Of a stretch of 64,000 bases of DNA, positions 14,070 through 59,992 are shown in pieces (the first letter of the stretch is position 1; each line of letters starts with the position of its first letter). The notes under the pieces were generated by a model. The model did no database searches and was not told the DNA's origin. It saw only the letters and a program-made list of their open reading frames with translations. The stretch comes from Pseudomonas sp. (GTDB taxonomy: Bacteria; Pseudomonadota; Gammaproteobacteria; Pseudomonadales; Pseudomonadaceae). The translations under genes and the position numbers were made by a program. The stretch covers positions 38,097 to 102,096 of the forward strand of contig JAWWDH010000001.1 of the NCBI GenBank assembly GCA_033720015.1. Reading direction: 5' to 3'.

Positions 14070-14429
14070 ATGGCTAACAACGACAAGGTCCAGTGCAAGT
14101 GCTGTGGGATGATGATGGTTCCGAAGACGATCTTCAGCCCCGGTATTTACGGTGGTTGGGGTTGGCGTATCGGTGGCGGTCGGCCGGTGTCGAACTGCTG
14201 CCCTTTCTGCTTGAGTGAGAGCTGGGATGGTGCGGCAACGGACGTTCGGACATCGACATGGTACCGCGCTGTAGCGCTTATCCTTTCCTTCGTTTGTCTG
14301 TTGGGCGGTTTTGCGATTCTTGGGTTCCTCAACGAGCAATTTTTCTCCGGAGGTTTGCCAGGGATACTGGCGCTTCTTCCCATTGCTGGTTCAATTTATT
14401 TTGCGTGGCGGTTTACGAAGGTGAGCTAA
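14070..14429 (+). CDS. Small inner-membrane protein with CxxC pairs; candidate entry-exclusion protein
   Basis: CKCC...CCPFC, two C-terminal TM helices, convergent with traG. Confidence 0.5.
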   Translation: MANNDKVQCKCCGMMMVPKTIFSPGIYGGWGWRIGGGRPVSNCCPFCLSESWDGAATDVRTSTWYRAVALILSFVCLLGGFAILGFLNEQFFSGGLPGILALLPIAGSIYFAWRFTKVS

Positions 14430-14465
14430 TCTCATAACAATAACCGCCGCGCAGTCAACACCCAC

Positions 14466-14491
14466 AAAAGAACCCGCTTGGCGGGTTTTTT
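14466..14491. terminator. Bidirectional terminator
   Basis: AAAAGAACCCGC-ttg-GCGGGTTTTTT. Confidence 0.8.
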
Positions 14492-14501
14492 GTTAATAAA
14501 A

Positions 14502-17342
14502 TTAATCGTCTATACTAGGAGGCTTTTTGCTGTTACGGCTTAGCTCCTGCAATTTACTGTACCCATCGCTCACAGCATTGATAACCGGAGAGGCTATCTG
14601 CTTTGCTCCTACAATAAGGGTGTTGCTGCTATCAAAGTTCCCTATGCCCTTAAACCCATCAACAACAGGTGACGTGGTATTCATGCTTACATCAGGCTTC
14701 TCCATCGTCATTTGGGGAACAGCGTTTAGGTTTTCTTGGTTATATTCGGCTACAACATTGTCGTTTTCAGTTTGAGCTGCACTAACAATATCTTTTCCGC
14801 TCTCTACCGATTGCTCTCGACCAGACAGGGACATATCGTATTCCGATGTATAGCCGCCTTCATTTGCACTCCACTTTGAGTTGAATCTGTCATTTAAGTG
14901 ATCAGTTGGTATGCGATTGTCTTGCATGCCTTCAAACTCACTTGCATTGCCAGCGCTTACATTGAAGTCAAACGGAGTGAATTTCGAGCCGATAAGTTCA
15001 TCTAGCCTACCTGACTGCATCATGTGTAGCATTGAAGCTGCTACAGCACGCTCATTACTGTCTGCACTCACGCCGCGCACAGTAGAGCTATCTATAAGCG
15101 TTCGAATTGCCTGCTGATCATCATTCGTTTTCCCAGCCATGTCCAATATTTGACGGGCGGCCTCTTCTCTTGGCAAGCCGCTTCTCGCTAAGCTACTTGC
15201 AGCAGCAACACCAATGTCCATATCTTGCCTGGATGACCATGCCTCTTTCTGTGACGCTGCGTATTTATAGGCTTCCTGAGCCGTTTTTGCGGCCGTGGTG
15301 CTTTTCGCTATTTGCTCACCATTGGAAGCCTGTTGCATTGCCTGCTGGCTTGAATTAAACGAATCTGCAGAGTTGTAGATTGTGCTTTCACTCATATTTG
15401 ACTGAACAGCTCGACTGAGTTGCGCAACTGCCTCACGAGCTTGCTGCTGCTGCTCAGAGCTCATCTTCTGGAAGGATTCGCTCTGTTCAAGTTTTGTTCC
15501 AATCGCTCCTAATGGCGCTTGGAAGCCTATAGATGCACCCCAAACGCCCTGCGCAATTTCATTTTGTGTTATTCCATGAGACTGAAGCGTTTTGGACGCT
15601 TCATTGAACTGTGCGTTTTTACTCAGACCAAGGGCTGCTTGTGATTGCTGCCCAAGGCCCGCTAAGGTCTGCCGGCCTTCTGAGCTGCTATTTAATTGCG
15701 ATGAGCCAGCAACAAGTTGCTGCTGCAGTTGACTGGTGGCTGTTTCTGCATTGGTGCGGCTACTTTCAACTGCAGCCTCTGCTGATTGTGAGGCCGAAAT
15801 CTTTGGTGCAACCGCCCTTGCTCCAGTAACAGCAACGCCCTGGGTCATCTGGTCAGACGTAAAGCTGCTGGTCGAATCCATCACCGGCGCTTGGTTCTTC
15901 GCCCGCGGCAACACATCCTCGGACTTGAACTTATCGCCCTGCGTCATCTGGCCCATGATGCCGTTGGCCACCATGGCTGAGCCAGACACGATGAAGAGTG
16001 CTAGGGGCGGTACCGAGGCAGCAAGCAAACCACCTATCCCAAGCGCCTTCGAAATGGCTTGATCTAGGTCCAGCACCTGCAGCATTGCGAAGCCTTCGCT
16101 TGTGCTGTCATAGCCTTCGAACACAGCCTGAATCTCAGCGCCGGCATACCAAAGGGTAAAGGCATTGACGATGCTTAAAAGGGGCATCCACAGGCCAACA
16201 GCCAACGGCAAGATCAGGTATTTGCCGAGCACGGACAGTCCAGGGCTACCCAGCACGAGGGCAAAGGCCATGAACGGAGTCATCGCGTACAGCAGGCCCT
16301 CAAAGAAGGCAATCATGGGGCGCATGTAGTGCTTGAAGATGTCGCCCTTGCCTGCCCACTGGATTTCTTGCTGGTTAAGGGATTCGCGCAAAGCCATGGC
16401 AGCATTCTGCTCCTGCCAATGGTTCAGGGCGTTGACGCGGGCATCCCCAAAGATCGGGACGATCAGGGCCATGGTGGTGTAACCCTGGGCATTCTTGGCG
16501 CTAATCCCCATTGATTGGATGGCGTCATCGGTACGCGCCATTACCTCGCCAGCGGTATTGATCTTTCCAGCAGCCCGCTCGGTAGCAAAGCCTCGGGCGA
16601 GTACATCTTCCATCAAGTCGGTGTAGACATCGGCTAGTGCCGTATTGAGTACAGCTTGGGCCTGGCTGCACGACATCAGCTGGCCGCCAGGTACGGTGCC
16701 GTCCTGGATGTAGACGAACTGAGATGTAAGCGGCGCGTTGAAGACCCCTGCAGCGCCAGAGGCGCGGTAAAGGTCGTCGATGCTCTGATACTCCCGTAGG
16801 GCAATCGGGTTCAGAGTACAGAACGTCAGAAACTCATCAACGCTTCTTGGCAGGTTCCAGCCCGCGTTTTTCCTGTAGTTCACATATGAATCGAGCGCCA
16901 AAGGATTGCGCAGTGCATCGCGCACCCGGCTAATGGTCGTAAGGCTGCTGAAGAGCCCATAGTCGGTCATTGTGGGGGTTGAAAAGGCCTGTTCACCGAC
17001 GCGAGTAATGTCGTATGCAACTGTCGAAATCACCGAGCCGACAAATGTTGGCCCTAAGGGCACATTGTCAACCACCCTCGCCTGCCCCGTGGTTGTGTCC
17101 TCTATAACTGCTGTTGTTGTCGGACCGTAGAAGATGAGATACAAAACCAACAGAAGCCCGGCCTTCTGGAAAGAGATCCCTTGGCCGTTGAATACAGCCT
17201 GAAACCCAAGAAGGAGCAAGCCAATCATAAGGCCAATCCTTGCAAGGTCTTCGGATGTTCCCGACGAGGTAATCATGGCGCTCGCATTGAGCATGATTTC
17301 AAGGAACTCGGCGCTGCCGGTTGTGTAAATGTTCATACTCAT
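14502..17342 (-). CDS. traG: Mating-pair stabilisation protein TraG
   Basis: TraG_N start MNIYTTGSAEFL..MLNA; RVVDNVPLG; multiple TMs; follows traH. Confidence 0.95.
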   Translation of the reverse strand: MSMNIYTTGSAEFLEIMLNASAMITSSGTSEDLARIGLMIGLLLLGFQAVFNGQGISFQKAGLLLVLYLIFYGPTTTAVIEDTTTGQARVVDNVPLGPTFVGSVISTVAYDITRVGEQAFSTPTMTDYGLFSSLTTISRVRDALRNPLALDSYVNYRKNAGWNLPRSVDEFLTFCTLNPIALREYQSIDDLYRASGAAGVFNAPLTSQFVYIQDGTVPGGQLMSCSQAQAVLNTALADVYTDLMEDVLARGFATERAAGKINTAGEVMARTDDAIQSMGISAKNAQGYTTMALIVPIFGDARVNALNHWQEQNAAMALRESLNQQEIQWAGKGDIFKHYMRPMIAFFEGLLYAMTPFMAFALVLGSPGLSVLGKYLILPLAVGLWMPLLSIVNAFTLWYAGAEIQAVFEGYDSTSEGFAMLQVLDLDQAISKALGIGGLLAASVPPLALFIVSGSAMVANGIMGQMTQGDKFKSEDVLPRAKNQAPVMDSTSSFTSDQMTQGVAVTGARAVAPKISASQSAEAAVESSRTNAETATSQLQQQLVAGSSQLNSSSEGRQTLAGLGQQSQAALGLSKNAQFNEASKTLQSHGITQNEIAQGVWGASIGFQAPLGAIGTKLEQSESFQKMSSEQQQQAREAVAQLSRAVQSNMSESTIYNSADSFNSSQQAMQQASNGEQIAKSTTAAKTAQEAYKYAASQKEAWSSRQDMDIGVAAASSLARSGLPREEAARQILDMAGKTNDDQQAIRTLIDSSTVRGVSADSNERAVAASMLHMMQSGRLDELIGSKFTPFDFNVSAGNASEFEGMQDNRIPTDHLNDRFNSKWSANEGGYTSEYDMSLSGREQSVESGKDIVSAAQTENDNVVAEYNQENLNAVPQMTMEKPDVSMNTTSPVVDGFKGIGNFDSSNTLIVGAKQIASPVINAVSDGYSKLQELSRNSKKPPSIDD

Positions 17343-30749: not shown

Positions 30750-30760
30750 GTTTAGAAATA

Positions 30761-32956
30761 GGGTTTGGAGAGCAGTGGAACCAAAAACCAACGTAAGGCG
30801 TAGTTAGAGTTCGCCGTTGCCAAGAACCGGGCGGTTATCCAGACGATGAACTCCGTTGCCCTTCATAAATTGTCCGCCCGATGCCGCTAAGGCATCTGCA
30901 GACGCTGTCTAGTAGGATTGCGCCCACCAGAAGCGGTTCTGTCTCCGGGGTCACGCCAAGCGCGCTGAGTGATTTCTGTATCTCTGTCTTCGAGGGCAGA
31001 TGGGCATCCCCTAAACGCAGGCCATAGGCGATGTGTAACGGCCCCATGATCCTGTAGGCAGCTTCCTTGTCGCAGTAACTTTGAAGGACCCGCTCTAGCA
31101 ACTTTAAACCCCCAAACTTCTCCTTCGGATCAAGGGGGAGGAGTGTTCGGAGCAGGCTAATGTCGATAGAGTCAGCGGTTAGCCTGGCTATATCTTTGGC
31201 AAGTGCGAGGATGCCGTTCTCTTTCAACGCCCGGAATCGGTGGCATTGCCCCAGGATTTGCTCGGCATGGTCATGGGGTTTGAAGAGCGGACCACCGAAT
31301 GATTCATCGAAGAGTGCGTTCAGCTTTTCAATTAGAACCTGGAAATCAACCTCGGGCGCCTTGGTGTGGGCAGGTTCGCACCTCTGTTGGGAGTCAAGCA
31401 GTTCTCGCGATGGTGGACCGTCGGGAGATATGTTGAATCCATGCCAGATTTGCTGCTGCCAGAGAGGCAGACGAGCGACGTCGTAGGCGTAGACGTTGAT
31501 TCGACAGTTTTCATTGATTCCGAAGTGTACGTAGTAGTCTGGTGAGCAGCTGATAGAGCCCGTTTCGGCGGTGTACCAGCTTAGCGAGGCGCCGCGGTAC
31601 GCAAGCAGCGCCTCGATGACTTCTGCTTTGAACCAGAGATACTTACCTACGTCTTCATTGTTGAGCTTGCTGGCCGGCGCCTTCTCACCAGCTGCGCCGA
31701 CCGAATAGTAGAGCTGTTCGGCAGGGGTATCCCTGCGAACACGTTCGCTTGCAGCGGCAGGCTCCACCCACTCATCGCGCCACAGCTCTCCCTCTACTCG
31801 CTCAACCGTGGGGCCGCCACGATCAAACTGGTACGACTCGAAATCAGTGTTCGAGTCGTCTTCTGGCCCAAATTCAGGTACGTCCTCGCCGTGGTCAACA
31901 TCCGTACGCCACGCCTTCATCACAGCAACGCGGCCAGGAATTGAGCCGTCTTCAGTGATTGCGAACGTGCGCAGCCCAAATCTTTCGGTCGCAGTCTTCT
32001 CAGTCGAGTTTTTGCCATACCAGGGAAGGTGGGATGTGTCTGCCATTATCTGGAGTCGCTGCCGGTATTGAACAAGGCGCAGGGCCAGCTTTCGCGCGCA
32101 GAGGTAGTCGCGAAGGTGTTCGGCACGGATTTCGATTGCAACGATACTCCCGCTTGGATCTCGTCGTTGCCGGATGACCTCGATATAGCCTTCATCGACA
32201 CGAAACCAGGAATCCCCTTCGCGCAAGAGGCCGAGCGCGATGACCAGGTCCTGATTAACGTGCCACTCGGTCTCGTGGGCTCCGTTCAGCCGATTCAAGA
32301 GCACAAGCTCAATGCCAACCGGGTCTTCTTTGTCGTAGTGCCAGTACTGGTCTGCGGGCTTGTAGCGGCCATCTTCGAAGGCATAGGGGCCGGGAACGTG
32401 GATCAGACCAATATCGTTCCAGCTCAGCGTGTCTCCGATCTCTCGTCGGTCCTGGCGAACGGCCAGTGATCCTACACACAGGGACTCCTCGAAATACCCA
32501 GGCTTCCCTTTGGTGCCACCGGTTGCTAGCTGCTCAGATTGCCGAAGTGGTATCCAGATGCCTGAGGAAAGACGCCGCCGACGGATCTCGGGCATCTGGA
32601 ACCAATCGGCTTGAAATATCTCTGACATAGGTGCGCCCCGGTGCTGTCCTTGTGGCTTTCGAGCCTACATTACCGGGGCATAAAATACCCCGCCTAGTCG
32701 GAGTTGGAACGGAACAGAAAGTGCATTTAAGCCCAGCGCCTGCCCGCAAACCCTTGTGGAGTCTGGTGAGTTCGGGGAAACCATCGTTTTGCCGAACCGA
32801 AACAGTCACAGCGTTCGGGGGCAGCGCGAGGCGCTGATAGCGGCCCAGAAAACTCGTTCGACAAAACAAAGTTCTGAAAACCGCCCATGCTCACGGCAGA
32901 GCTGAACTCTAATCTCGCCTTACGTTGGTTTTTGGTTCCACTGCTCCCCAAACCCC
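30761..32956. mobile_element. Non-autonomous Tn3-family element (mobile insertion cassette), 2196 bp, 5-bp target duplication AAATA
   Basis: IR-R 32919-32956 GGGGTTTGGGGAGCAGTGGAACCAAAAACCAACGTAAG (38 bp); IR-L 30761-30797 is the same minus one terminal G with one substitution; AAATA at 30756-30760 and 32957-32961; no transposase or resolvase inside. Confidence 0.9.
30835..32628 (-). CDS. Passenger protein, 597 aa, with a C-terminal helical HEPN-like RxxxxH motif
   Basis: IMGPLHIAYGLRLGDAH in an alpha-helical C-terminus; sole gene of the Tn3 cassette. Confidence 0.6.
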   Translation of the reverse strand: MSEIFQADWFQMPEIRRRRLSSGIWIPLRQSEQLATGGTKGKPGYFEESLCVGSLAVRQDRREIGDTLSWNDIGLIHVPGPYAFEDGRYKPADQYWHYDKEDPVGIELVLLNRLNGAHETEWHVNQDLVIALGLLREGDSWFRVDEGYIEVIRQRRDPSGSIVAIEIRAEHLRDYLCARKLALRLVQYRQRLQIMADTSHLPWYGKNSTEKTATERFGLRTFAITEDGSIPGRVAVMKAWRTDVDHGEDVPEFGPEDDSNTDFESYQFDRGGPTVERVEGELWRDEWVEPAAASERVRRDTPAEQLYYSVGAAGEKAPASKLNNEDVGKYLWFKAEVIEALLAYRGASLSWYTAETGSISCSPDYYVHFGINENCRINVYAYDVARLPLWQQQIWHGFNISPDGPPSRELLDSQQRCEPAHTKAPEVDFQVLIEKLNALFDESFGGPLFKPHDHAEQILGQCHRFRALKENGILALAKDIARLTADSIDISLLRTLLPLDPKEKFGGLKLLERVLQSYCDKEAAYRIMGPLHIAYGLRLGDAHLPSKTEIQKSLSALGVTPETEPLLVGAILLDSVCRCLSGIGRTIYEGQRSSSSG

Positions 32957-32985
32957 AAATAAGAGAGGGGGCCGAAGCCCCCTCT
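32957..32985 (-). terminator. Intrinsic terminator of the large surface-protein gene
   Basis: AGAGGGGGC-TTCG-GCCCCCTCT then CTTATTT. Confidence 0.8.
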
Positions 32986-32999
32986 GGATGTCGCTGCTC

Positions 33000-35900
33000 T
33001 TAATAGTTGGAGACTGGCTGGGACTCAGCCCCAGAGTCATCGACCCCTACCAGGGTAATGACCGGCTCCCCGTTCGGGTAACGCCACATGGGAACCGAAA
33101 TCGAGCTGGAGGTGATGGCCTGCTGCACACCGTCGACGAACCAGAGGTAGCTAGCCAAACGGCCGTCTTCGTCTGTACAGCCCGAGCGGGCCAGCCAGCT
33201 GGTACGCCCTTCGATGACCTCGACGGTACAGGTCGGCGGCATGTTTTCCTCAACCTGGATGCTGACCTCACCATTGGCCGTATGGCCCATCTGCGAGGCG
33301 ATATCGAGGCGAACGGTATGGGTGCCCTTATCCAGGGTGGCCCTGCCGTAGTCGCCTGAGCTTTCCAGCGGCTCGCCGTTGAGGGTGTACTGACGCGACT
33401 CAATACGATCCTTCGGATGGCCACCGGTGATGCTCGGGCGAATCAGTACACCAAGGGGCGCACGGTTGGCCGGGTTGTCACCACTCCACGAAAGGGTCAC
33501 CTCGTAGGGAATCGGCTCCATGAAGGTCAACTCAGTCTGGGCATAGGAATAATTCCCCCGGGCGTCGCTGACGTGAACGCCGAAGGTATAAGTTCCTGCC
33601 TCGATGATCCTGAGCACGCGGCTGGTCTGGCTCGTATCCTTGACAACCTCCACACCGGGGTACGGTGGGATATCCCAGTCCATCTCCAGCCCCTCGAACT
33701 CACGGAACAGGCCCAAAGAGCGCACCTGCATAGTCAGGTCGGCCGGCGAATACGCAGCAGAGGTTTTCGCCTGGATTGACCACTCAGGCCAGTCATACGA
33801 CCAGAACAGCAGGCGGTGCTGGGTCAGGCCCTTACCGCCGTTGTCCTCATAGCCGTTAATCCACGCCTCGAAGCCGATATAGCTCTTCTCCTCGGTGCTG
33901 TCCTCCATGGTTGGGGTGTAGGCCACCTCCCGCTCATGCACGATCTCGCCGTTGGGCAGGATGAAATAGCCGTCCATGGTCAAATCCATTTTCGGGTACG
34001 GCATCATCAAGTTGGCCTTCCAGATCGCTTCTTGGCCCACCTCTGGCCGGCGCGGGCCGATCAGCTGGACACGCGGCGGCCGGACCTTGCGGAAGGCCAC
34101 GCCAGCACGGAGATTGCGATAGACGCGCTTGTCATCTGGCGAATCGGCAAACTTCACCCGAGCCATCAGGTACACGCGCTCAGCCGAATCACGGGTCAGT
34201 TCGTAGCTTCCGGTGCCTTCTACCCAGGTCTGGCCGCGGTCTTCCGACCACTCGACTACCATGCCGGCCGTATCGAGGCCTTCGCCCTGGATGTCAGTCA
34301 GTTGGAAGCGGCCAATGTCGCTGATGAAGACGTTCGCCGGCCCCTTCAGGCGAGCTACCGGCACCTCGTAGGCAATCACCTCAATCTGCGGGGTGAAAGA
34401 CTTCTCCCCAGAATGACGGTTCGTGATCTCGGCCCGCAGGTGGTAGGTGCCCTTGGCAAATACCATGGTCAGGCGCTGCTGCAGCTGGCCAGTGTTTTCG
34501 ACCGTCTCCCAGGTAGCACCACCGTCTTTGCTCCGCTCCCACCGCACGTCGCCAATATCACTCGATTCCATACGGTTGACGGTCATGGCGTAGAAAGTGC
34601 TGCGCAGAGGCGCAGGACCGATCACGCGCAGGGCCTGGATCATCCCGTCGAGTGGATCGCCATTGAGGATGGTCAGGGTCATCGGGTAAGCGGTCTTGCG
34701 CACCGACTCATACCCAGGCACCGGGGAGCGAACACGGGCCTCTGCTACGACTCGAACGATCTTGTTCGTCAGCAAGGCCAGATCCATTTCGAACTCTGCT
34801 ACTCCATCGTCATTGATCGGCTCCCAGTCCGAAAGCGGCTGATAGTTCATGCCCGATGTGCTCATCAGCAAGCGGATATCCCAATCGCCCATGCTCGAGA
34901 GCCTGTGACCATCCTCGGGGAAGTTGGTATCCAGAATCTGCACATTGATCGGCAGGGACTGGGTATCCAGCACGCGGCGCTCATCGTTGAGGATGACTGG
35001 TAGGATCTTGTCGTGTGGCACCGCCAGCAGTTGAGCTTCCTTGTGAGTTTCCAGAGCAGGCAACTGCGTGTAGCGGGCCGAGAAACGATAAGGCGTCAGG
35101 CTCCACAGTGGCTGCTCGTCTCCCTCGATGTAACGGGTAATCCGCTGGTTGCGACCATAACTCGGGATGGTGGAATACTCCCCTTCCTCGAGCCCATGGC
35201 TGTCTTTCACGTCGATGTTTGCTGGCAGGGCGTTGACCGTCACGCTACCGACATAACCGCCGAGTTGCGATACCGCGTAGATGTCGTCACCCACCAGATT
35301 GGAGGTGGGTAGCTCGATCTCAATGGCCGGCGGCTCGATAACCTCGATGTCATGGCTGCCATGGGTCACGTCGATCTCTTCGCCGCTCGGAGTGAAGACG
35401 GACACCTTCCAGGTGATTGATTGTTCACCCAGAACCAAGGCCGACCCCACAGCTTGCGGGACATGCCAAGTGGTGGATTGGGCCAAACCCTCTGGCAGGT
35501 TCGTCCAACGAATGAAGCACATCGGCTTGCTCTGCCACTGCTTGGCGACATTGCGGGCTATCGTCTCGGTCGTTGTTGCATCGCAGGACGCTCCGCTTTG
35601 CTGGCGAAGTACCAGGGCCAGATTCTGCACCGACTGGTAGGTCTGGGCCGGAGCAGGCTGCAACGCAAAGCTCACCGCATCAATCACCGGCAGAACAGTG
35701 AGCTCCTGGTCGAAGTCCGCTATCCAGTGCTTCCCACCTTGAGGGTCGAACACATAGGCCTTGGCCCGTACCGGGTGCTTGCCAGTGGTGCGCCCATAGG
35801 CCTCCATGGCGAGCGAGGTGCTGTTGCTGGTGTTGCGCCACTCCTCGGGCTTCAGATCCCACTCAATCAAGCAAGCAGGGTCTTGGAGCACGTTTTTCGG

Positions 35901-38900
35901 CTTCACCATGCCCTCGCTGGTCAGAACCGCACAGGCATTGCCAGCAGATTCGAAACGAATTTCCGCGGGCTCGATGGCCTGACGAACCTCCCAGCGAGAA
36001 GAGGAGAGTTGGCCTTTCGGAGCCCAGGCATGCACCGGCACCGGGTAAACCGGACCGCTCATGTCGGCACGGGACAGGTAGACCTGGGCCATGCCGTCGA
36101 CACCAACATTCAGACCAGCTAGGCGTGCTTCAAGGTAGCCGGCGGTACGTTTGGTTGGGGTCAAGCGCATGCCGATCTCGGGGGCTAGATCTCGGCTTTC
36201 CAGTTTCACTCCCACAGGGGAGTCTGGGGTAACCACTGCGATGATGTCATCACCTAGCGCCTCTACCACGGCTGCGTCGGTGAGCTGTAGTGCGTAGCTG
36301 CCATCGCGGCGCGTCATAAAGGTCGTCACCGCGGGAACAGACGCTTCTGCACCGCTTGGCTGAACCGCCCTACCCTCGAACATGCCCCAGGCAGACTCGA
36401 ATTTCAGGAGGATATTTTTCTCCAAGGTGAGGCCATCTTGATCCGTCGCCTTGATGCGAACCGAAGTGTCGGCGTCATCGTCGGTTCTGATCGTCAGGGT
36501 ATTGCCGTCGATAGTCGCGCTGCCATGGGCCGGCTGGCCGATAACGCTGAGCTGGTGGCTACCCCAAGTATTCGGGTCAACAACCTGCAGCTCGGCGGTA
36601 CCACCGATGCCCGCATACAGGGTCACCACGCCAGGCACTATGTCGATCGGGGCATAGTTGAACTTGGCCACCTCCACGCGCACTTCACCTTCGACACTCG
36701 CGCCGGCCTTGTCAGTGGCGCGGATGATGAAGGCGTCATTACCGAAGAACTGCGGATATGGGGTGTACTCCAGCATGCCGTGGACAAGCTGGGCCGACCC
36801 TTTAGCAGGCTGCGAGACGATCTCGAAGGTGTGCTCATCACCATAAGGAAGGTCTGCATCGACTACCCAGGGCTCAACATGGTCGCTGGCCATCCCCTCC
36901 TTGGTTGGGATCGTAGCCCCGGTTGCGTCCGGCGTATCATTGACATAGGTGACCTCGAGGGTGATCGGCTCAACCTCCGACCAAGCGCCCTCAGAGTCCA
37001 TCGCTCGGTAGGTAAGCGTGAGCTGTCCATTCCAGTCCTCGGTAGGGGTAATAGTCAGTTTGTCACCTTGAAGGGTGTACTTCCCTTCTTCCTCCTCAAG
37101 CGTGCCTATGATCTCAAACTCGAACGGAGCTGCACTGTCCACGTCTGCGGCAGTGAGCGTTACGACCAATTCTGTGTCCTCCGGCATCGTCAGGGTGAGC
37201 GGTGACACCACGGGCGCATCGTTGACCGGATTCACTGTGATTGTGATGGTCGCGGTATTGGAGTTGGCATTCTTCGAGTCGGTGGCCCGATAGGTCAGCG
37301 TGGTCGTGCCATTCCAGTCCTTCACTGGGGTGAAGGTCAGCTTGTTGCCGGCGATGCTCGCCGTGCCATGGGCGGCGTTCGGCGCAGTGACGATGGCCCA
37401 GGTATGGCTGTCACCCTCGAACTGCAGATCCACGTCAGTGACCTGCAGTTCGAGGGTGCCCACGGTGTCTTCATCGATCACCAGGGTTGCATTGCTTACC
37501 GAGGGCACATCGTTGACCGGGGTAACGGTCAACGTCACGGTCGCGGTGTTCGAGTTGGCCGTGCCGTCATTGGCCCGGTAGGTGAAGCTGGTGGTGCCGT
37601 TCCAGTTCGGCTTGGGCGTGAAGGTGGCCTTGTTGCCACTGATCGTCACGGTGCCGTGGGCGCTATTCGGGGCGGTCACAACACCATAAGTCAGGCTGTC
37701 GCTGTCCACGTCGCTGGCAACCAGGGTCACCGTGGCGGCGGTATCTTCTGCAACCGTCAGGCTGCCATTGCTGGCAACTGGTGCATCGTTGACCGGATTC
37801 ACTGTGATGGTGATGGTCGCGGTGTTGGAGTTCACATTCTTCGAGTCGGAGGCCCGATAGGTCAGCGTGGTCGTGCCATTCCAGTCCTTCACTGGGGTGA
37901 AGGTCAGCTTGTTGCCGGCGATGCTCACCGTGCCGTGGGCGGCGTTAGGCGCGGTGATGATGCTCCAGGTATGGCTGTCGCCCTCGAACTGTAGATCCAC
38001 GTCCGTAACCTGCAGGGTCAGGGTGCCAACCGTGTCTTCGTTGACCGTCAACGTCGCGTTGCTCACCGAGGGCGCATCGTTCACCGGGGTGACGGTTACG
38101 CTGATCGTCGCGGTGTTGGAATTGGCCGTTCCATCATTGGCTCTGTAGGTGAAGCTGGTCGTGCCGTTCCAGTTGGGCTTGGGCGTGAAGGTGGCTTTGT
38201 TACCGCTGATCGTCACGGTGCCGTGGGCGCTATTCGGCGCAGTCACAACGCCATAGGTCAGGCTGTCGCCATCCACGTCGCTGGCAACCAGGGTCACCGT
38301 TCCGGCGGTGTCTTCAATAACCGTCAAGGTGCCATTGCTTGCAACTGGGACGGTATTATTTGGAACGCTTTCGCAAAGGGGGCCATAGGATACGCTGCCT
38401 GCTGTCCATGCCGCACCACTACCCATAGAGTATAATTTGCCATTCCTATAGATTGTAAAATTCAAGTAAGAGCCATGAACGTCCTCTTTGTACACTCCAC
38501 CTACATAGGTCTTTGTTGAAAATTTCACTCCGTCAAAATGACCAAAAACACCCCCGTGTTTTCCTGGCTCAGATTTACAATTTAAAATCCAATCGGATCT
38601 GTCAATAGATGATTCAACACAAAGCTCGTATTCATTAATGGTCAGTCCATACATGGTGGCTGATTTTACAAACTTCCCCCGTGAGAATTTTGCCACTGGT
38701 GTAGACATCGACTTCAATACCATGCTGGAGCCTTGATCATATACTTTGGAACTGACATAGTTGTCAGTATCCATGATTTGTTGCCCTGCATAAACTATAT
38801 GATTGCCAGGAACCATAACGCCAGAACTCCAAACCAACATATTTGCACCGTTATACGAGCAAACAAATGCTGCCATTGAGCTTCCGGAAAAACCAAATAA

Positions 38901-38936
38901 CAAGAAGAACACAAGAAATATCTTAGGCGCCTTCAT
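33000..38936 (-). CDS. Large secreted Ig-like (Big_9/cadherin-like) repeat protein, 1978 aa
   Basis: Signal peptide; five ~95-aa repeats (VTPVNDAP..S..TL.V.ED...DVD.D.LTY...P...WNGTTTFTYRA.D); PKD-like C-terminal modules. Confidence 0.9.
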   Translation of the reverse strand: MKAPKIFLVFFLLFGFSGSSMAAFVCSYNGANMLVWSSGVMVPGNHIVYAGQQIMDTDNYVSSKVYDQGSSMVLKSMSTPVAKFSRGKFVKSATMYGLTINEYELCVESSIDRSDWILNCKSEPGKHGGVFGHFDGVKFSTKTYVGGVYKEDVHGSYLNFTIYRNGKLYSMGSGAAWTAGSVSYGPLCESVPNNTVPVASNGTLTVIEDTAGTVTLVASDVDGDSLTYGVVTAPNSAHGTVTISGNKATFTPKPNWNGTTSFTYRANDGTANSNTATISVTVTPVNDAPSVSNATLTVNEDTVGTLTLQVTDVDLQFEGDSHTWSIITAPNAAHGTVSIAGNKLTFTPVKDWNGTTTLTYRASDSKNVNSNTATITITVNPVNDAPVASNGSLTVAEDTAATVTLVASDVDSDSLTYGVVTAPNSAHGTVTISGNKATFTPKPNWNGTTSFTYRANDGTANSNTATVTLTVTPVNDVPSVSNATLVIDEDTVGTLELQVTDVDLQFEGDSHTWAIVTAPNAAHGTASIAGNKLTFTPVKDWNGTTTLTYRATDSKNANSNTATITITVNPVNDAPVVSPLTLTMPEDTELVVTLTAADVDSAAPFEFEIIGTLEEEEGKYTLQGDKLTITPTEDWNGQLTLTYRAMDSEGAWSEVEPITLEVTYVNDTPDATGATIPTKEGMASDHVEPWVVDADLPYGDEHTFEIVSQPAKGSAQLVHGMLEYTPYPQFFGNDAFIIRATDKAGASVEGEVRVEVAKFNYAPIDIVPGVVTLYAGIGGTAELQVVDPNTWGSHQLSVIGQPAHGSATIDGNTLTIRTDDDADTSVRIKATDQDGLTLEKNILLKFESAWGMFEGRAVQPSGAEASVPAVTTFMTRRDGSYALQLTDAAVVEALGDDIIAVVTPDSPVGVKLESRDLAPEIGMRLTPTKRTAGYLEARLAGLNVGVDGMAQVYLSRADMSGPVYPVPVHAWAPKGQLSSSRWEVRQAIEPAEIRFESAGNACAVLTSEGMVKPKNVLQDPACLIEWDLKPEEWRNTSNSTSLAMEAYGRTTGKHPVRAKAYVFDPQGGKHWIADFDQELTVLPVIDAVSFALQPAPAQTYQSVQNLALVLRQQSGASCDATTTETIARNVAKQWQSKPMCFIRWTNLPEGLAQSTTWHVPQAVGSALVLGEQSITWKVSVFTPSGEEIDVTHGSHDIEVIEPPAIEIELPTSNLVGDDIYAVSQLGGYVGSVTVNALPANIDVKDSHGLEEGEYSTIPSYGRNQRITRYIEGDEQPLWSLTPYRFSARYTQLPALETHKEAQLLAVPHDKILPVILNDERRVLDTQSLPINVQILDTNFPEDGHRLSSMGDWDIRLLMSTSGMNYQPLSDWEPINDDGVAEFEMDLALLTNKIVRVVAEARVRSPVPGYESVRKTAYPMTLTILNGDPLDGMIQALRVIGPAPLRSTFYAMTVNRMESSDIGDVRWERSKDGGATWETVENTGQLQQRLTMVFAKGTYHLRAEITNRHSGEKSFTPQIEVIAYEVPVARLKGPANVFISDIGRFQLTDIQGEGLDTAGMVVEWSEDRGQTWVEGTGSYELTRDSAERVYLMARVKFADSPDDKRVYRNLRAGVAFRKVRPPRVQLIGPRRPEVGQEAIWKANLMMPYPKMDLTMDGYFILPNGEIVHEREVAYTPTMEDSTEEKSYIGFEAWINGYEDNGGKGLTQHRLLFWSYDWPEWSIQAKTSAAYSPADLTMQVRSLGLFREFEGLEMDWDIPPYPGVEVVKDTSQTSRVLRIIEAGTYTFGVHVSDARGNYSYAQTELTFMEPIPYEVTLSWSGDNPANRAPLGVLIRPSITGGHPKDRIESRQYTLNGEPLESSGDYGRATLDKGTHTVRLDIASQMGHTANGEVSIQVEENMPPTCTVEVIEGRTSWLARSGCTDEDGRLASYLWFVDGVQQAITSSSISVPMWRYPNGEPVITLVGVDDSGAESQPVSNY
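37216..38349. repeat. Tandem 567-bp near-identical duplication (two Ig domains per unit)
   Basis: Matching sequence at 37321/37888, 37216/37783 and 37763/38330. Confidence 0.9.
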
Positions 38937-39101
38937 TATTCTTCCCCTTAAAGTGTTCGCGCATACAATTCAGCATTTCCCAATGGTGCAATCTTGTAGT
39001 TTGTGAAGGCCGGCAAGCTTTCAGTGGTCATGATTCACAATGGGAATTCTCAATGAGCGCCCCGTGAACTGCTTTGGCTACTGATGTGTACCGCTGGCCC
39101 G

Positions 39102-39599
39102 CTAATTATTCCCTTGACGGTCTACAACCTTTGTCGACAACGGCCGCAACGTCGGTGCTGCATCAGACTGACGCGAGCCAATTTCCCAGCGACGCGCTTC
39201 CACTTCGGTATATATAAAACCAGGAACGTACAGGTCACCGTTCTCGTCTTCCCACGGATCTATTGCAATCCGCATAACTACAGCCTGGGTGCGAATAGGG
39301 AGCGGGTTGCGAGCGCGCATTGGAATAGGCGCGTTATCAGCCCCCTCTGCGTAGAGAACTCGGGTTTGAGGTTCGCCCTGAACGGCAGGCTTACCTCCCT
39401 GGGCGGCCTGCTGCTCGGCCTTGAGGGTAGTCTTGTAGTTCTCAGTTTCGGTGGCGTTATAAACCTCTTTTGCCGACATGCAGGACACACCTTCAGGCAT
39501 ACCCTTACAGGAATATTCAGAAGCGCCGATATTGAGCATGCTCGTGCAGCCGGTCATAAGGAATGTTGCAACGGAAATTGCAATAATATTCTTGATCAT
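39102..39599 (-). CDS. traV: Lipoprotein TraV
   Basis: Lipobox MTGC; YSCKG..GVSCMSA; MRIAIDPWEDENGDL.VPG.IY. Confidence 0.92.
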   Translation of the reverse strand: MIKNIIAISVATFLMTGCTSMLNIGASEYSCKGMPEGVSCMSAKEVYNATETENYKTTLKAEQQAAQGGKPAVQGEPQTRVLYAEGADNAPIPMRARNPLPIRTQAVVMRIAIDPWEDENGDLYVPGFIYTEVEARRWEIGSRQSDAAPTLRPLSTKVVDRQGNN

Positions 39600-57515: not shown

Positions 57516-58739
57516 TTGGCCATTGCTAGCCAAGAACATCGATGTACCAGGGGGTACGCCGAGTTGGACGAACAAGGAAAGCTCAAACCCGTGAATGGGC
57601 GCTACAACACCAACGACGAAACGAAACGAATCGTCTGGACTCAGGCTGCCGGCCACTGCGAGCTATGCGGCACCGATCTCACGTTCGACTATCGCGCAGG
57701 CAAGCCGATGAGGTGGGGTGAGGTTGCCCACATCCTACCGGCCAGCCCTCAAGGCCCGCGAGGGCGTAAGGCTCATGACGAAGCAAAGGCGCAGGGTCTC
57801 ACGAACGACTGCGCCAACCTCATGCTCTTGTGTCCGGGCTGCCACGACAAGATTGATCGTGACGCGGATGGCTACCCGGAAAATGACTTGAGTGGCCTGC
57901 ACCAGGCCTACCTCGAACGCATCCGCCTCGCGGCTACAACGCCCGATGGCGGCCGGGCAATTCCCGTAATCGTTCAGAGCCAGCACTTCGCGACGAGCAA
58001 TGACATTTCCGTTCGCGATCTGCTGACTGCAATGTCTTCCGAGGGGCTAACGGCCTTCGACCATCCCATCAAGATCACCTTCCCGCCTCCCGGACCTCGT
58101 GGCAGGGATGCGTTCTATTGGCAGAAAATCAAGGACGACATCCAGCACGACCTGGAGCAGCAACTGAAACGCCGTGGGGGTACTTATGGCGACGCGCCTG
58201 CGCTGGCTGTCGTGGGTGTGGCTGATATTCCAGCGCTAATGCTATTGGGACAGGCTATAGGCGACCGCTCTAAACGCCTGCTCTTTTCCTTCAATCGCGA
58301 GCATCAACTACGTTGGCCTAATCAGTCAGCTGAGCCGCCGGAGTTTTTGTTCACCCCCCGGGCGGTTGGGGATGGCCCGCTTGCACTGGTACTGTCTATC
58401 TCCGCTCAGGTCCCGCTTCGCGACGTCGAGGAGGCACTACCTGGCGCACGTATCGCAGAGCTAAGCATCCCAGAACCCAGTTACGCGATGGTTCAGAACC
58501 GTCGCGTGATTCACGCTTTTCGCGACGCCCTACAAATGCACTTGAGCCGACTTGAGGCCGCGACGGCGGACACAATTCATGTGTTCGCGGCGATTCCAGC
58601 TGCTTTGGCGATTGAGTTCGGTGCCTTGCTTACCACGCAACACCAGCATCCTTACCTGATTTTCGATCGAGATAAAGACAACCAAAACAGGTTCACGCCA
58701 ACACTACAGTTGGGCCTTCAGGCCCAGGAGGTCCGTTGA
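57516..58739 (+). CDS. cap5: CBASS effector, HNH endonuclease-SAVED (Cap5-type)
   Basis: AAGHCELCG; GEVAHI; NLMLLCPGCHDKID; SAVED-like HVFAAIPAALAIEFG; start may be further downstream. Confidence 0.9.
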   Translation: MAIASQEHRCTRGYAELDEQGKLKPVNGRYNTNDETKRIVWTQAAGHCELCGTDLTFDYRAGKPMRWGEVAHILPASPQGPRGRKAHDEAKAQGLTNDCANLMLLCPGCHDKIDRDADGYPENDLSGLHQAYLERIRLAATTPDGGRAIPVIVQSQHFATSNDISVRDLLTAMSSEGLTAFDHPIKITFPPPGPRGRDAFYWQKIKDDIQHDLEQQLKRRGGTYGDAPALAVVGVADIPALMLLGQAIGDRSKRLLFSFNREHQLRWPNQSAEPPEFLFTPRAVGDGPLALVLSISAQVPLRDVEEALPGARIAELSIPEPSYAMVQNRRVIHAFRDALQMHLSRLEAATADTIHVFAAIPAALAIEFGALLTTQHQHPYLIFDRDKDNQNRFTPTLQLGLQAQEVR

Positions 58740-59992
58740 TGTCCATGAGCAATGAACAGACCAAGCGAGGGAGTTGGGAACACTTTCTGCTCCGCGCAGC
58801 AAGGGAGATCTCACTGTCGGAAGCGCAGTACGAGAAGATCAACGATCGATACTCCCAGTTGGAGAAGATCCTTTCTGCATCCGACAATCCGCTACTGGCG
58901 GAGGCGCATATTTTTGTTCAGGGCTCCATGCGCCTGAAAACGACGATCAAACCCGTTTCTGGCGCTCCCGAAGATTTGGACACCATCGATGCGGACGCCA
59001 TCATTTGGCTTCCACATGCCCAGGGGGCGGGAGCTCAAGAAGTCCTGGATGCTATCGAGGAGCGATTCAGGGCTGGTAGCCGTGTACAGGAGGAAATCAA
59101 GCCGCTGCGTCGCGGCATTCGGATCGTCTATGCCGACGAAAACCCCGGATTCCATATCGATGTCACGCCAGCGCGTGCCATCAATGGGAACTCTCAAGGC
59201 AATGGCGAAGGTAAGCTGGAAGTTCCAGACCGGGAGACAGGATGGAAGGCGAGCAGCCCCATCCCCTACTCCAATTGGCTGCAGGTCGCTTCAACCCAGA
59301 CGATTTCCTTGGAGGAGCATCTAGCTGTCGCGAAAAGTCAGCGCACCGTTGATGCCGCCACTCAGGATCCGTTGCCTCAGTATGAGGAGTACCTCGATCA
59401 AGACCCACTTCGGGCAACGATCAAGCTGCTGAAGCGGCATCGTGATGAGTGGGCCATCAGAACGAAGAATGAGGACTGCCGACCTATTTCGGCAGTCATC
59501 ACAACACTCGCCACTCACGCCTACCTTGACGTGGCGAAAGAGTCTCAGTCGAAACCGCTAAGGCCGCTGGATGCGATCCTCGAGATCGTCCGGAGGATGC
59601 CGGATCACGTCAAACACCGGGGGAACGAATGCTTGGTCTGCAACCCAGCAGACAGCGGTGAAAACTTCGCTGAGAAATGGAATAGACCGAGTGAGGGGCA
59701 TCGCTACCGCCGGGCTTTCCAAGACTGGCACTCGAATGCCAGTGCATCTGTGTCATTGGGGCTTGAGAGCTTCGATTCCGCGGAGGCTTTTGCCAAGGCA
59801 GTTAAGGAAAACTTTGGCATGAGCCCAGCGTTCATCTCGGCAGTGAACAGCGAAATTCCGTCCAACTGGACGATGCCTGGCCGCTCGGACGGAACCACCC
59901 GAAACTCTACGTCAATGGGCGCACTGTTTGGAGGTGTCAGTGGGACAGCGAGTTCTCAGGAGGACGTGAAGCCGGTTGAGCGTCTTGGTTGA
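58736..59992 (+). CDS. CBASS CD-NTase (SMODS nucleotidyltransferase)
   Basis: QGSMRLKTTIKP; DTIDAD; FHIDVTPA; IKLLKRHRD; ENFAEKW. Confidence 0.93.
   Translation: MMSMSNEQTKRGSWEHFLLRAAREISLSEAQYEKINDRYSQLEKILSASDNPLLAEAHIFVQGSMRLKTTIKPVSGAPEDLDTIDADAIIWLPHAQGAGAQEVLDAIEERFRAGSRVQEEIKPLRRGIRIVYADENPGFHIDVTPARAINGNSQGNGEGKLEVPDRETGWKASSPIPYSNWLQVASTQTISLEEHLAVAKSQRTVDAATQDPLPQYEEYLDQDPLRATIKLLKRHRDEWAIRTKNEDCRPISAVITTLATHAYLDVAKESQSKPLRPLDAILEIVRRMPDHVKHRGNECLVCNPADSGENFAEKWNRPSEGHRYRRAFQDWHSNASASVSLGLESFDSAEAFAKAVKENFGMSPAFISAVNSEIPSNWTMPGRSDGTTRNSTSMGALFGGVSGTASSQEDVKPVERLG

What the first reader, a model, noticed from the sequence alone, without database searches (positions are those of the whole stretch)
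33000..38936. Giant Ig-repeat surface protein with an AT-rich, probably swapped N-terminal tip
The first ~190 codons are ~42% GC in a sampled line versus ~65% in the repeats, with an abrupt switch near 38350. A variable tip on an Ig stalk, in a system lacking traN, could set recipient specificity. Ig-domain proteins are known to contribute to conjugation of IncHI and IncA/C plasmids.
Basis: partly seen in the sequence, partly recalled or inferred. Interest (0 to 1): 0.65.

Follow-up and report, generated by a model that had tools for sequence, protein, structure and literature searches.

The report
Swappable AT-rich head on conjugation adhesin
A giant secreted Ig-repeat protein of a Pseudomonas-type conjugative plasmid, related to the RSP proteins that help IncHI and IncC plasmids mate, carries an AT-rich N-terminal head that near-identical plasmids have exchanged for unrelated heads, so it looks like a swappable binding module whose target is unknown.

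Summary
ORF 33000-38936(-) encodes 1978 aa. Its first 196 codons have GC 0.42 and GC3 0.41, against GC3 0.73-0.76 in the rest of the gene. This is the lowest-GC 600-bp stretch on the 103-kb contig, and the switch falls at 38348/38349.

The protein belongs to the RSP / IncA/C "Big" family of conjugation-accessory proteins. Its C-terminal ~1100 aa match the IncC Big protein (32% identity, E 1e-177) and IncHI RSP (23-24%, E 1e-54 to 1e-57). It sits in the same place, between traV and pilin/dsbC/traC.

"Swapped tip" is supported. DNA homology to the closest relatives stops inside the traV 3' end (~39170) and resumes exactly at 38348. Backbones 95-97% identical carry unrelated heads. The window's clade of five has five head types. 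The window's head has no detectable homologue in 1.84 billion representative proteins. Only profiles show that it shares a Cys-closed scaffold with other heads. Variable heads are AT-rich across the family.

"Lacking traN" is not supported. A complete traN lies on the neighbouring contig of the same plasmid.

A role in recipient specificity is untested. The family is known; the exchangeable head polymorphism appears undescribed.

The parts
38868..38936 (-). Sec-type signal peptide (residues 1-23; n-region MKAPK, hydrophobic core, SMA/A cleavage motif)
   Evidence: Read from the translation. Equivalent signal peptides are present in the relatives' heads. Assigned by inspection, not by a predictor.
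38941..38949 (-). Ribosome-binding site (AAGGGGAAG) about 5-7 nt upstream of the ATG at 38936
   Evidence: Sequence. It supports the start at 38936 rather than the Met41 start that a public gene call used (P0004, 1938 aa).
38613..38867 (-). Head module A (residues 24-108): Cys26...Cys106-closed domain with C-x-Y ... F-x-R-G ... Y-E-L-C landmarks
   Evidence: Scores 19.9 bits against an HMM built from 17 other heads. None of 5000 shuffles reaches this score (maximum 16.6; 15.1 with the Cys positions fixed). Single-sequence searches detect nothing.
38349..38612 (-). Head module D (residues 109-196): second Cys-bounded part (Cys120, Cys188) with Y-V-G-G ... R-N-G-x-L-Y landmarks
   Evidence: Aligns with the second half of the heads of L001/P0002, L006, L028, L030 and L031. 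The whole head scores 14.4 bits against an HMM of those five, and none of 2000 shuffles reaches that.
38349..39170 (-). AT-rich, non-homologous cassette block: traV tail (last ~22 codons), 165-bp spacer, and the head
   Evidence: GC is 0.44 against 0.57 and 0.60 in the 2-kb flanks. blastn homology to L001, L005 and L006 ends at 39169-39178 and resumes at 38348 (38226 for L006).
36408..38348 (-). Stalk: seven tandem-95 / Big_9 Ig-like repeats (residues 197-843). Units 1/3 and 2/4 are near-duplicates.
   Evidence: Pfam Big_9 3e-84 and Cadherin_4/5. NCBIfam tand_rpt_95 3e-87. Repeat HMM. TRF period ~288. The first repeat is modelled by AF2 at pLDDT 80-94.
33000..36407 (-). Conserved C-terminal body (residues 844-1978 plus stop), the part shared with IncC Big and IncHI RSP
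   Evidence: tblastn: IncC 32% identity over 95% of the query, E ~1e-177; RSP 23-24%, E 1e-54 to 1e-57; closest plasmid 70.8%. 88 homologues found.
32964..32985 (-). Intrinsic terminator hairpin 15 nt after the stop codon
   Evidence: 9-bp stem with 7 G-C pairs, followed by a T-rich tail.
39102..39599 (-). traV (165 aa). The conserved core ends at RRWEIG. The tail after it varies and lies inside the cassette block.
   Evidence: Pfam TraV 1e-24. Alignment of ten TraV C-termini.

Best explanation
The gene encodes a member of the RSP / IncA/C 'Big' family. These are large secreted Ig-domain proteins of MOBH/MPF_F conjugative plasmids that assist mating. The protein has three parts.

(1) A conserved C-terminal body of ~1135 aa. 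It co-evolves with the transfer backbone and is inferred to carry the family's shared functions: T4SS-dependent export and association with the pilus and flagella, as shown for RSP.

(2) A stalk of seven tandem-95 Ig repeats. Repeat number varies from 3 to 10 among relatives.

(3) A mature N-terminal head of ~170 aa behind a Sec signal peptide. The head is one allele of a hypervariable, modular cassette. Related plasmids exchange it by homologous recombination, using the conserved core of traV on one side and the first Ig repeat on the other. It also diverges much faster than the body.

Shown here: family membership by sequence and synteny; the compositional break; the breakpoints; the mismatch between head type and body phylogeny; the modular make-up of the heads.

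Inferred: the head is a ligand-binding module held away from the conserved body by the stalk. Its diversity would reflect diversifying or frequency-dependent selection from a variable external surface, such as the recipient envelope, flagellin or glycans, or from phage or predator pressure. It would act alongside the separately encoded TraN, not in its place.
For: Family and context. The C-terminal body matches IncC Big and IncHI RSP. The gene order traL-E-K-B-V / Big / pilin / dsbC / traC / trhF / traW / traU is the same as in IncC. RSP and the IncA/C homologue are secreted, bind flagella and pili, and are needed for conjugation at 25 C (PMC6764697, PMC8730810).

Composition. GC3 is 0.41 in the head against 0.73-0.76 in the rest, and this is the lowest-GC patch on the contig.

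Breakpoints. Homology to the three closest relatives stops at 39169-39178 and resumes at 38348. Their own blocks are also low-GC (0.42-0.47 against 0.51-0.61) and are mutually unalignable.

A recent swap. Two S. stutzeri elements are 95.5% identical up to 36 nt before the traV stop and 96.9% identical from codon ~246 onward, pilin gene included. Between those points lie 794 bp in one and 1232 bp in the other, with no similarity. Their bodies are 98.8% identical and their heads 17%.

Tree. The window's well-supported clade of five (SH-aLRT 99) has five head clusters. Head type H2 needs 6 changes on the body tree, H3 needs 3, and H6 needs 2.

Pair statistics. Pairs with bodies 85-95% identical have a median head identity of 17.6%. 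In the sister clade with a conserved head the figure is 92.6%.

Uniqueness. No homologue of this head in PLSDB, in 5.8 billion clustered proteins, or by phmmer over 1.84 billion representatives.

Shared scaffold. Profile scores of 19.9 and 14.4 bits exceed all shuffles.

AT-rich heads recur in every sampled member with a variable head, and in the long DUF4165 heads of the IncP-7-like and IncC proteins. They do not occur in the conserved-head clade.
Against: No experiment or structure bears on what the head binds. AF2 could not model it (pLDDT 25-45), so 'binding module' rests on architecture and variability alone.

In R27 RSP, the last 280 C-terminal residues are surface-exposed, and nanobodies against them inhibit conjugation (PMC11268884). 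The conserved end is therefore not simply a buried anchor, and which end is distal is unknown.

Recombination alone does not explain the persistent low GC3 of the heads. Heads that are co-inherited with their bodies also diverge faster than the bodies, so part of the diversity arises in place rather than by swapping.

Confidence: 0.75

Rival explanations
1. One-off foreign insertion. The AT-rich tip is a single recent acquisition from a low-GC donor in this plasmid only, with no wider significance.
For: GC3 of 0.41 against 0.75 is a classic foreign-DNA signature. The head has no detectable homologue anywhere.
Against: Every sampled relative with a variable head has an equally placed low-GC head with the same boundaries. 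The window's head shares a Cys-closed scaffold and a two-module layout with other heads of the family. This makes it one allele of a family-wide polymorphism.
Confidence: 0.05
2. Assembly chimera. The head block was joined to the Ig stalk and to traV by mis-assembly in a fragmented (697-contig) genome.
For: The assembly is fragmented. The stalk is repetitive. Reads could not be checked.
Against: The reading frame is continuous across both junctions, with RBS, signal peptide and head in frame with the stalk. The same architecture is seen in independent assemblies, including a complete circular plasmid. Both junctions lie in unique sequence, and the block is 820 bp long.
Confidence: 0.03
3. Diversification in place without exchange. 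A targeted mutator (diversity-generating retroelement) or a stock of silent cassettes (shufflon or gene conversion) generates head diversity within each plasmid.
For: The heads are hypervariable while the rest of the gene is conserved. Co-inherited heads still diverge faster than bodies.
Against: The genome holds no second copy or template of the head DNA or protein. The ORF scans found no reverse transcriptase or invertase next to the gene. Heads differ in module content and length (94-274 aa, and >1000 aa for the DUF4165 heads), which point mutagenesis cannot produce. Clean replacement breakpoints occur in 95-97% identical backbones.
Confidence: 0.04
4. The AT-rich 5' block is mainly a regulatory feature. 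It would be a nucleation site for H-NS/MvaT-type silencers that gives temperature- or host-dependent expression, and the head's protein-level variability would be secondary.
For: The AT-rich block also covers the spacer and promoter region upstream of the start. RSP transcription depends on temperature and growth medium, and both RSP and the IncA/C homologue matter at 25 C (PMC6764697, PMC8730810). Low GC3 at the 5' end is also seen in the non-variable IncC gene (0.38-0.46 against 0.57-0.66), which argues for a reason beyond swapping.
Against: The conserved-head sister clade shows no 5' GC drop. The idea does not explain the modular replacement of heads. No silencer gene was identified, but the PF00816 search was uninformative for pseudomonads. 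The idea is compatible with the main explanation rather than exclusive of it.
Confidence: 0.2
5. The head targets the donor's own appendages, not recipients. It would bind flagellin or other donor structures, as RSP binds flagella, and would vary because those host structures vary.
For: RSP and RSP2 bind flagella and the conjugative pilus and reduce motility (PMC6764697, PMC8730810). Flagellin surface domains are highly variable (general knowledge).
Against: Two elements in the same host species (S. stutzeri) with 97% identical pilin-containing backbones carry unrelated heads. Neither host species nor pilin type therefore predicts the head. The IncA/C homologue did not affect motility (PMC8730810). 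Strain-level variation in flagellin or glycans is not excluded.
Confidence: 0.2

Closest known systems
IncA/C (IncC) plasmid Big protein (pKAZ3 ALG87338.1; 1843-aa 'Ig-like domain-containing protein' WP_000606833.1)
   Same: Homologous over the C-terminal ~1100 aa (32% identity, E ~1e-177). Same locus between traV/traA and dsbC/traC of a MOBH/MPF_F transfer region. Large size, Ig-type domains, and a lower GC3 in the N-terminal third. The IncA/C protein is secreted and needed for conjugation at 25 C (PMC8730810).
   Different: The IncC N-terminal region is a long DUF4165/Big_3 array and is nearly invariant among IncC plasmids (hundreds of records at the same identity; PMC8730810). Here there is a short Cys-closed head of ~170 aa plus a tandem-95 stalk, and the head is hypervariable among close relatives.
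RSP of IncHI plasmids (R27 ORF R0009)
   Same: Homologous C-terminal region (23-24% identity over ~870-915 aa, E 1e-54 to 1e-57). Encoded in the transfer region of a MOBH plasmid and contains a bacterial Ig-like domain. RSP is exported in a T4SS-dependent way, binds flagella and pili, and is required for conjugation (PMC6764697, PMC8730810).
   Different: RSP is smaller (155 kDa). No exchangeable N-terminal head polymorphism is described for it. Function here is inferred only. No NCBIfam RSP model matched.
Tandem-95 repeat / DUF4165 proteins of Pseudomonas and Stutzerimonas MOBH plasmids (e.g. S. degradans PheN2 plasmid CP040459.1; pDK1-type plasmids NC_014124.1)
   Same: Direct orthologues. 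Bodies are 57-80% identical, synteny is identical, and the same head-stalk-body plan applies.
   Different: Each carries a different head. In CP040459.1 the head is cut off from the stalk by a frameshift. The pDK1-type proteins have a >1000-aa DUF4165/Big_3 head instead.
TraN tip domains (F-like plasmids) and PilV shufflon adhesins (IncI): known recipient-specificity determinants of conjugation
   Same: They work alike in one respect only: a variable, surface-exposed tip on an otherwise conserved transfer protein, with allelic variants among related plasmids (established knowledge; a resemblance, not a test).
   Different: There is no homology. This protein has no PF06986 domain, and TraN is encoded separately. 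There is no shufflon-type stock of inverted cassettes. Variation arises by inter-plasmid recombination. No receptor is known.
Fibrillar adhesins (head-stalk surface proteins; CshA-type repeats)
   Same: Signal peptide, a terminal non-repeat domain, and a stalk of Ig-like repeats whose number varies. Weak CshA_repeat matches.
   Different: No recognised anchor (no LPXTG, autotransporter barrel or T1SS signal). The large conserved C-terminal body is specific to conjugative plasmids. Export is presumed to depend on the T4SS, as for RSP.

Membership tests
RSP / plasmid 'Big' conjugation-accessory proteins (IncHI RSP, IncA/C ALG87338.1) | Sequence homology to the characterised members | tested here: met
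   tblastn of residues 813-1978: IncC proteins 32% identity over 95% of the query, E ~1e-177; RSP 23-24% identity over 75-78%, E 1e-54 to 1e-57.
RSP / plasmid 'Big' conjugation-accessory proteins (IncHI RSP, IncA/C ALG87338.1) | Encoded inside the transfer region of a MOBH/MPF_F element, next to pilus-assembly genes | tested here: met
   The window has TraI_2 (MOBH), TraD, TraE, K, B, V upstream and pilin, DsbC, TraC, TrhF, TraW, TraU downstream. IncC has the same order.
RSP / plasmid 'Big' conjugation-accessory proteins (IncHI RSP, IncA/C ALG87338.1) | High molecular mass with one or more bacterial Ig-like domains | tested here: met
   1978 aa. Big_9 3e-84 in 6 stretches; tand_rpt_95 3e-87.
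RSP / plasmid 'Big' conjugation-accessory proteins (IncHI RSP, IncA/C ALG87338.1) | Exported to the surface or medium in a T4SS-dependent manner; binds flagella and/or the conjugative pilus | not testable with these tools
   Only a Sec-type signal peptide can be read from the sequence. The export route and partners are known only for R27 and pKAZ3 (PMC6764697, PMC8730810).
RSP / plasmid 'Big' conjugation-accessory proteins (IncHI RSP, IncA/C ALG87338.1) | Required for efficient conjugation (liquid, ~25 C) | not testable with these tools
   Needs deletion and complementation matings.
TraN mating-pair stabilisation proteins | F_T4SS_TraN domain (PF06986), Cys-rich outer-membrane protein | tested here: not met
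   No PF06986 match in P0001. The plasmid's TraN is a separate 884-aa ORF on contig C2 (125 bits).
Diversity-generating retroelement targets | A template repeat nearly identical to the variable region, plus a nearby reverse transcriptase | tested here: not met
   The genome holds no second copy of the head block at DNA or protein level. No reverse transcriptase among the neighbouring ORFs.
Shufflon-type variable pilus adhesins (PilV/Rci) | Clustered invertible cassettes flanked by sfx repeats, with a site-specific recombinase | tested here: not met
   Single head copy with no alternative cassettes in the assembly. Variation occurs between plasmids, with breakpoints in conserved coding sequence.
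Fibrillar adhesins | Signal peptide, terminal adhesive domain, repetitive stalk, cell-surface anchor | tested here: inconclusive
   Signal peptide and stalk are present. The adhesive nature of the head is unproven because the AF2 model is unusable. No known anchor motif was found.

The most novel reading that the evidence does not exclude
The head would be a third kind of partner-specificity determinant for F-type/MOBH conjugation, after TraN tips and PilV shufflons. In this reading it is a recombination-exchanged, AT-rich adhesin head on the RSP-family protein that decides which cell surfaces a pseudomonad plasmid can aggregate with and transfer into. It would be kept as a large allelic pool by frequency-dependent selection. 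Its AT-richness may also serve as a handle for xenogeneic silencers.
Probability: 0.3. Interest if true: 0.8.

Novelty: new variant of a known kind. Interest (0 to 1): 0.6.

Why it matters
RSP-family proteins are a recently recognised and poorly understood accessory layer of conjugation in IncHI and IncA/C resistance plasmids. They are being explored as antibody and nanobody targets (PMC11268884).

This locus shows that in the large Pseudomonas/Stutzerimonas branch of the family one end of the protein is a hypervariable, exchangeable cassette, while the other end is conserved with the transfer machinery. That yields a concrete, testable hypothesis about which part contacts a variable outside partner. 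It also gives natural allele series with defined breakpoints for swap experiments.

It carries a warning for targeting strategies: head epitopes will not be conserved, whereas the C-terminal body is.

It also shows that database entries often truncate or split the head through mis-called starts and a frameshift. This hides the polymorphism.

Tried and rejected
1. Single-sequence searches for the head all returned nothing: tblastn against PLSDB, two word-indexed searches of 5.8 billion proteins and exhaustive phmmer over 1.84 billion representatives. BLASTP against the S. degradans head also found nothing. Only small family profiles detect a relationship.

2. AF2 on head plus first Ig repeat with a 5-row alignment: the Ig repeat is confident (pLDDT 80-94) but the head is not (25-45). 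No fold search was run on it, because the matches would be meaningless.

3. PDB sequence search with the whole protein found no hit. NCBIfam has no RSP model that matches.

5. The 597-aa ORF downstream was considered as a divergent TraN and rejected. It has no signal peptide, looks cytoplasmic, and has no Pfam match. Earlier notes place it in a Tn3-type cassette.

6. A DGR or shufflon origin was rejected because there is no second head copy.

7. The search for an H-NS-type silencer with PF00816 was uninformative. The genome gave no hit, and among the 14 control genomes only E. coli matched.

8. One hhalign run gave an odd query depth and only 32% probability. I do not rely on it.

9. Amino-acid composition as the cause of the low GC was rejected, because the drop is largest at third codon positions.


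Full report
OBSERVATION. The minus-strand ORF 33000-38936 is real and encodes 1978 aa. Upstream of the ATG at 38936 there is a good RBS (GGGG at 38944-38947). The protein starts with a canonical Sec-type signal peptide (MKAPK, a hydrophobic core, then SMA/A). A strong hairpin terminator follows the stop codon. Codons 1-196 have GC 0.418, against 0.598 for the rest of the gene. The contrast is greatest at silent sites: GC3 is 0.41 in the head, 0.76 in the repeats and 0.73 in the C-terminal body, and GC3 climbs from about 0.4 to about 0.8 between codons ~180 and ~210. Amino-acid composition therefore does not explain it. This is the lowest-GC 600-bp window of the whole 103-kb contig (contig mean 0.574, sd 0.037), and only 0.15% of windows are as low. 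The repeats are about 60% GC rather than 65%. The AT-rich block also continues upstream of the start codon, through the spacer and into the last ~22 codons of traV, to about 39170.

WHAT THE GENE IS. Residues 197-843 are seven tandem-95 / Big_9 Ig-like repeats. Residues 844-1978 have no Pfam domain but are strongly conserved. By tblastn they match a 'tandem-95 repeat protein' of a Stutzerimonas degradans plasmid (70.8% identity), the IncC/IncA/C 'Ig-like domain-containing protein' (32% identity over 95% of the query, E ~1e-177, in hundreds of records) and the IncHI 'conjugal transfer protein RSP' (23-24% identity, E 1e-54 to 1e-57). The neighbourhood is a MOBH/MPF_F transfer region in this order: traI, traD, DUF4400, dsbA-like, traE, traK, traB, traV, this gene, an inserted cassette carrying a 597-aa ORF, pilin, dsbC, traC, trhF, traW, traU, and further on traF, traH, traG. 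IncC plasmids have their Big gene in the same place, between traV-traA and dsbC-traC. The literature shows that RSP and the IncA/C homologue are secreted in a way that depends on the conjugation machinery. RSP binds flagella and the conjugative pilus. Both proteins are needed for efficient conjugation at 25 C (PMC6764697, PMC8730810).

THE HEAD IS EXCHANGED.

- The head (residues 1-196) has no detectable homologue in PLSDB, in 5.8 billion clustered proteins, or by exhaustive phmmer over 1.84 billion representatives.
- The protein alignment to the closest plasmid relative starts exactly at residue 194.
- At the DNA level, homology (70-75%) to the three closest relatives runs from traD through traV and stops at window 39169-39178. 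It resumes at 38348 in two of them and at 38226 in the third. The non-homologous block therefore coincides with the AT-rich block.
- The relatives' corresponding blocks are also low-GC (0.42-0.47 against 0.51-0.61 in the flanks), and none aligns with any other.
- The clearest case is a pair of S. stutzeri elements. They are 95.5% identical up to 36 nt before the traV stop and 96.9% identical from codon ~246 of the big gene onward, through pilin, dsbC and traC. The intervening 794 bp in one and 1232 bp in the other share nothing. Their C-terminal bodies are 98.8% identical and their heads 17%.
- On a maximum-likelihood tree of the C-terminal 1135 residues of 73 homologues, the window's clade of five (SH-aLRT 99) has five different head clusters. 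Head type H2 needs six changes, H3 three and H6 two.
- Among pairs with bodies 85-95% identical, the median head identity is 17.6% and only 5 of 16 pairs share a head cluster. In a sister clade with a conserved head the corresponding figure is 92.6%.
- The left breakpoint sits where the conserved TraV core (ending ...RRWEIG) gives way to a variable tail. The right breakpoint sits at or just inside the first Ig repeat.

The simplest mechanism is homologous recombination between these conserved flanks during co-residence of related plasmids. This is an inference from the breakpoints. One S. stutzeri genome does carry two such elements with different heads.

THE HEADS ARE MODULAR, AND SOME SHARE A SCAFFOLD. 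Reading 45 heads shows recurrent modules:

- Module A: about 55-90 aa, closed by two cysteines, with landmarks C-x-[YFH] ... G-x-x-[YF]-x-x-G ... [EQ]-[IVL]-C.
- Module B: a ~45-aa CP-x-THPSG...WSDGS-x-RNYS-x-W repeat.
- Module C: a C-x-FNG...SC repeat.
- Module D: Y-[IV]-G-G...[KR]-[ND]-G-x-[LIV]-[YF].
- Long DUF4165/Big_3 arrays in the pDK1-type and IncC proteins.

The window's head is A+D. Its A part scores 19.9 bits against an HMM built from 17 other heads, and none of 5000 shuffles reaches that score, even with the cysteines held in place. The whole head scores 14.4 bits against five other A+D heads, and none of 2000 shuffles reaches that. 'Swapped' should therefore be read as exchange among alleles of a very fast-evolving modular head, not as capture of an unrelated gene. 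Heads that are co-inherited with their bodies also diverge faster than the bodies, for example 43% against 66% and 33% against 73%. Both rapid divergence and recombination contribute.

COMPOSITION ACROSS THE FAMILY. Low GC3 in the head is general wherever heads vary: 0.38 against 0.57, 0.42 against 0.69, 0.43 against 0.62, 0.48 against 0.64, and 0.39-0.43 against 0.61-0.64 for the >1000-aa DUF4165 heads. The IncC protein shows 0.38-0.46 in its first 600 codons against 0.57-0.66 afterwards. The clade with a conserved short head shows no drop. I cannot explain this fully. The candidates are exchange through a compositionally distinct allele pool, or selection for AT-rich DNA at the 5' end as a target of H-NS/MvaT-type silencers. 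The second would fit the temperature-dependent behaviour of the family but is untested. The only other patch on the contig below 45% GC lies in the 3' part of traG (window 14355-15054).

traN. The window and its contig C1 have no TraN. Contig C2 encodes a complete 884-aa TraN (PF06986, 125 bits). The genome has only one set of tra genes, all on C1. The closest complete relative plasmid has traN about 15 kb upstream of traL, not after traU. The last 8 kb of C2 are collinear with that plasmid up to and including traN at 67-75% identity, which is the same level as the backbone. The end of C1 matches the gene that follows traN there. C1 and C2 are therefore parts of one plasmid of at least 156 kb, and traN lies just beyond the window. 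The premise that the system lacks traN is an artefact of the window boundary.

HOW IT MOST LIKELY WORKS.

- Shown: family membership, architecture, and the exchangeable head.
- Inferred from the characterised relatives: the protein crosses the inner membrane by Sec and is released or displayed in a T4SS/pilus-dependent way, and its conserved C-terminal body carries the family's shared interactions.
- Inferred from architecture and variability: the head is a ligand-binding module on an Ig stalk of adjustable length, under diversifying selection from something variable outside the plasmid.

In the S. stutzeri pair the pilin gene stays 97% identical while the head is replaced, so the pilin is unlikely to be the head's partner. 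Both elements come from the same host species, so species-level host adaptation does not explain the difference either. Whether the partner is the recipient envelope, strain-specific flagellin or glycans, or whether the variability reflects escape from phages or predators, cannot be decided here. One caveat is that in R27 the C-terminal 280 residues of RSP are themselves surface-exposed, and nanobodies against them inhibit conjugation (PMC11268884). The conserved end is therefore not a buried anchor, and calling the head the 'tip' is an assumption.

RIVALS. A one-off foreign insertion is contradicted by the family-wide pattern. An assembly chimera is unlikely given the intact frame and the same plan in independent assemblies, but reads could not be checked. 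A DGR or shufflon origin is contradicted by the absence of any second head copy and by the module-level differences. A mainly regulatory meaning for the AT-rich block, and a donor-appendage target, both remain open and are compatible with the main reading.

NOVELTY. The protein family and its role in conjugation are known (2019-2024 papers). Those papers describe the IncA/C proteins, and separately the IncP2 proteins, as highly similar within each group. Full-text searches for DUF4165 and for Ig-like conjugative adhesins in Pseudomonas found no description of a hypervariable, recombination-exchanged N-terminal head. I rate it a new variant of a known kind.

Noticed in passing
Genome contig C2:49796-52450 (locus L009:13797-16451), outside the window: Complete 884-aa traN. 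C2 is collinear with the S. degradans relative plasmid up to traN, and the end of C1 matches the gene after traN. C1 and C2 therefore belong to one plasmid of at least 156 kb. In this plasmid lineage traN is not next to traU; a NERD-domain gene follows traU instead.
   Followed up: yes
window 14355-15054: The only other patch on the contig with 600-bp GC below 0.45. It lies in the 3' part of traG (946-aa ORF at 14502-17342). If so, the two AT-richest spots of the plasmid would both be swappable specificity regions.
   Followed up: partly
L001:4984-5637 and L001:5553-11498 (S. degradans plasmid CP040459.1): The orthologous gene is annotated as a 217-aa hypothetical protein plus an 1888-aa tandem-95 protein. 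The two frames overlap by ~85 nt, and the big frame is open 93 codons upstream of its annotated start, across a full Ig repeat. The head is therefore cut off by a frameshift, which may be real or a sequencing error.
   Followed up: partly
P0004, P0006/L006:7680, P0008/L028:5884: Public gene calls start the protein at internal Met codons (Met41 here; mid-head in two relatives). This removes the signal peptide and part of the head, so the head polymorphism is partly hidden in protein databases.
   Followed up: yes
window 30756-32961; L001:11987-13279: The short interval between the big gene's terminator and the pilin gene holds a mobile insertion in two relatives. Here it is the cassette with the 597-aa ORF (earlier notes call it a transposase-less Tn3-type cassette). 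In the S. degradans plasmid it is a group II intron. In L006, L027, L028 and L029 the pilin gene follows directly.
   Followed up: partly
L002:4850-10381 (IncC plasmid pP10159-5): The IncC Big gene also has low GC3 in its first ~600 codons (0.38-0.46) compared with 0.57-0.66 afterwards, although its N-terminal region is conserved among IncC plasmids.
   Followed up: partly
L012 and L016 (Stutzerimonas stutzeri strain 95A6, two contigs): One genome carries two paralogous elements of this family with different head classes: a short unique head and a >1100-aa DUF4165 head. Such co-residence gives the opportunity for head exchange.
   Followed up: no
window 57516-62248: A CBASS-like operon (HNH-SAVED, CD-NTase/SMODS, ThiF/E1-like, and further genes) lies between the DsbA-like gene region and the expected position of traN. 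It is absent at that position in the S. degradans relative.
   Followed up: no
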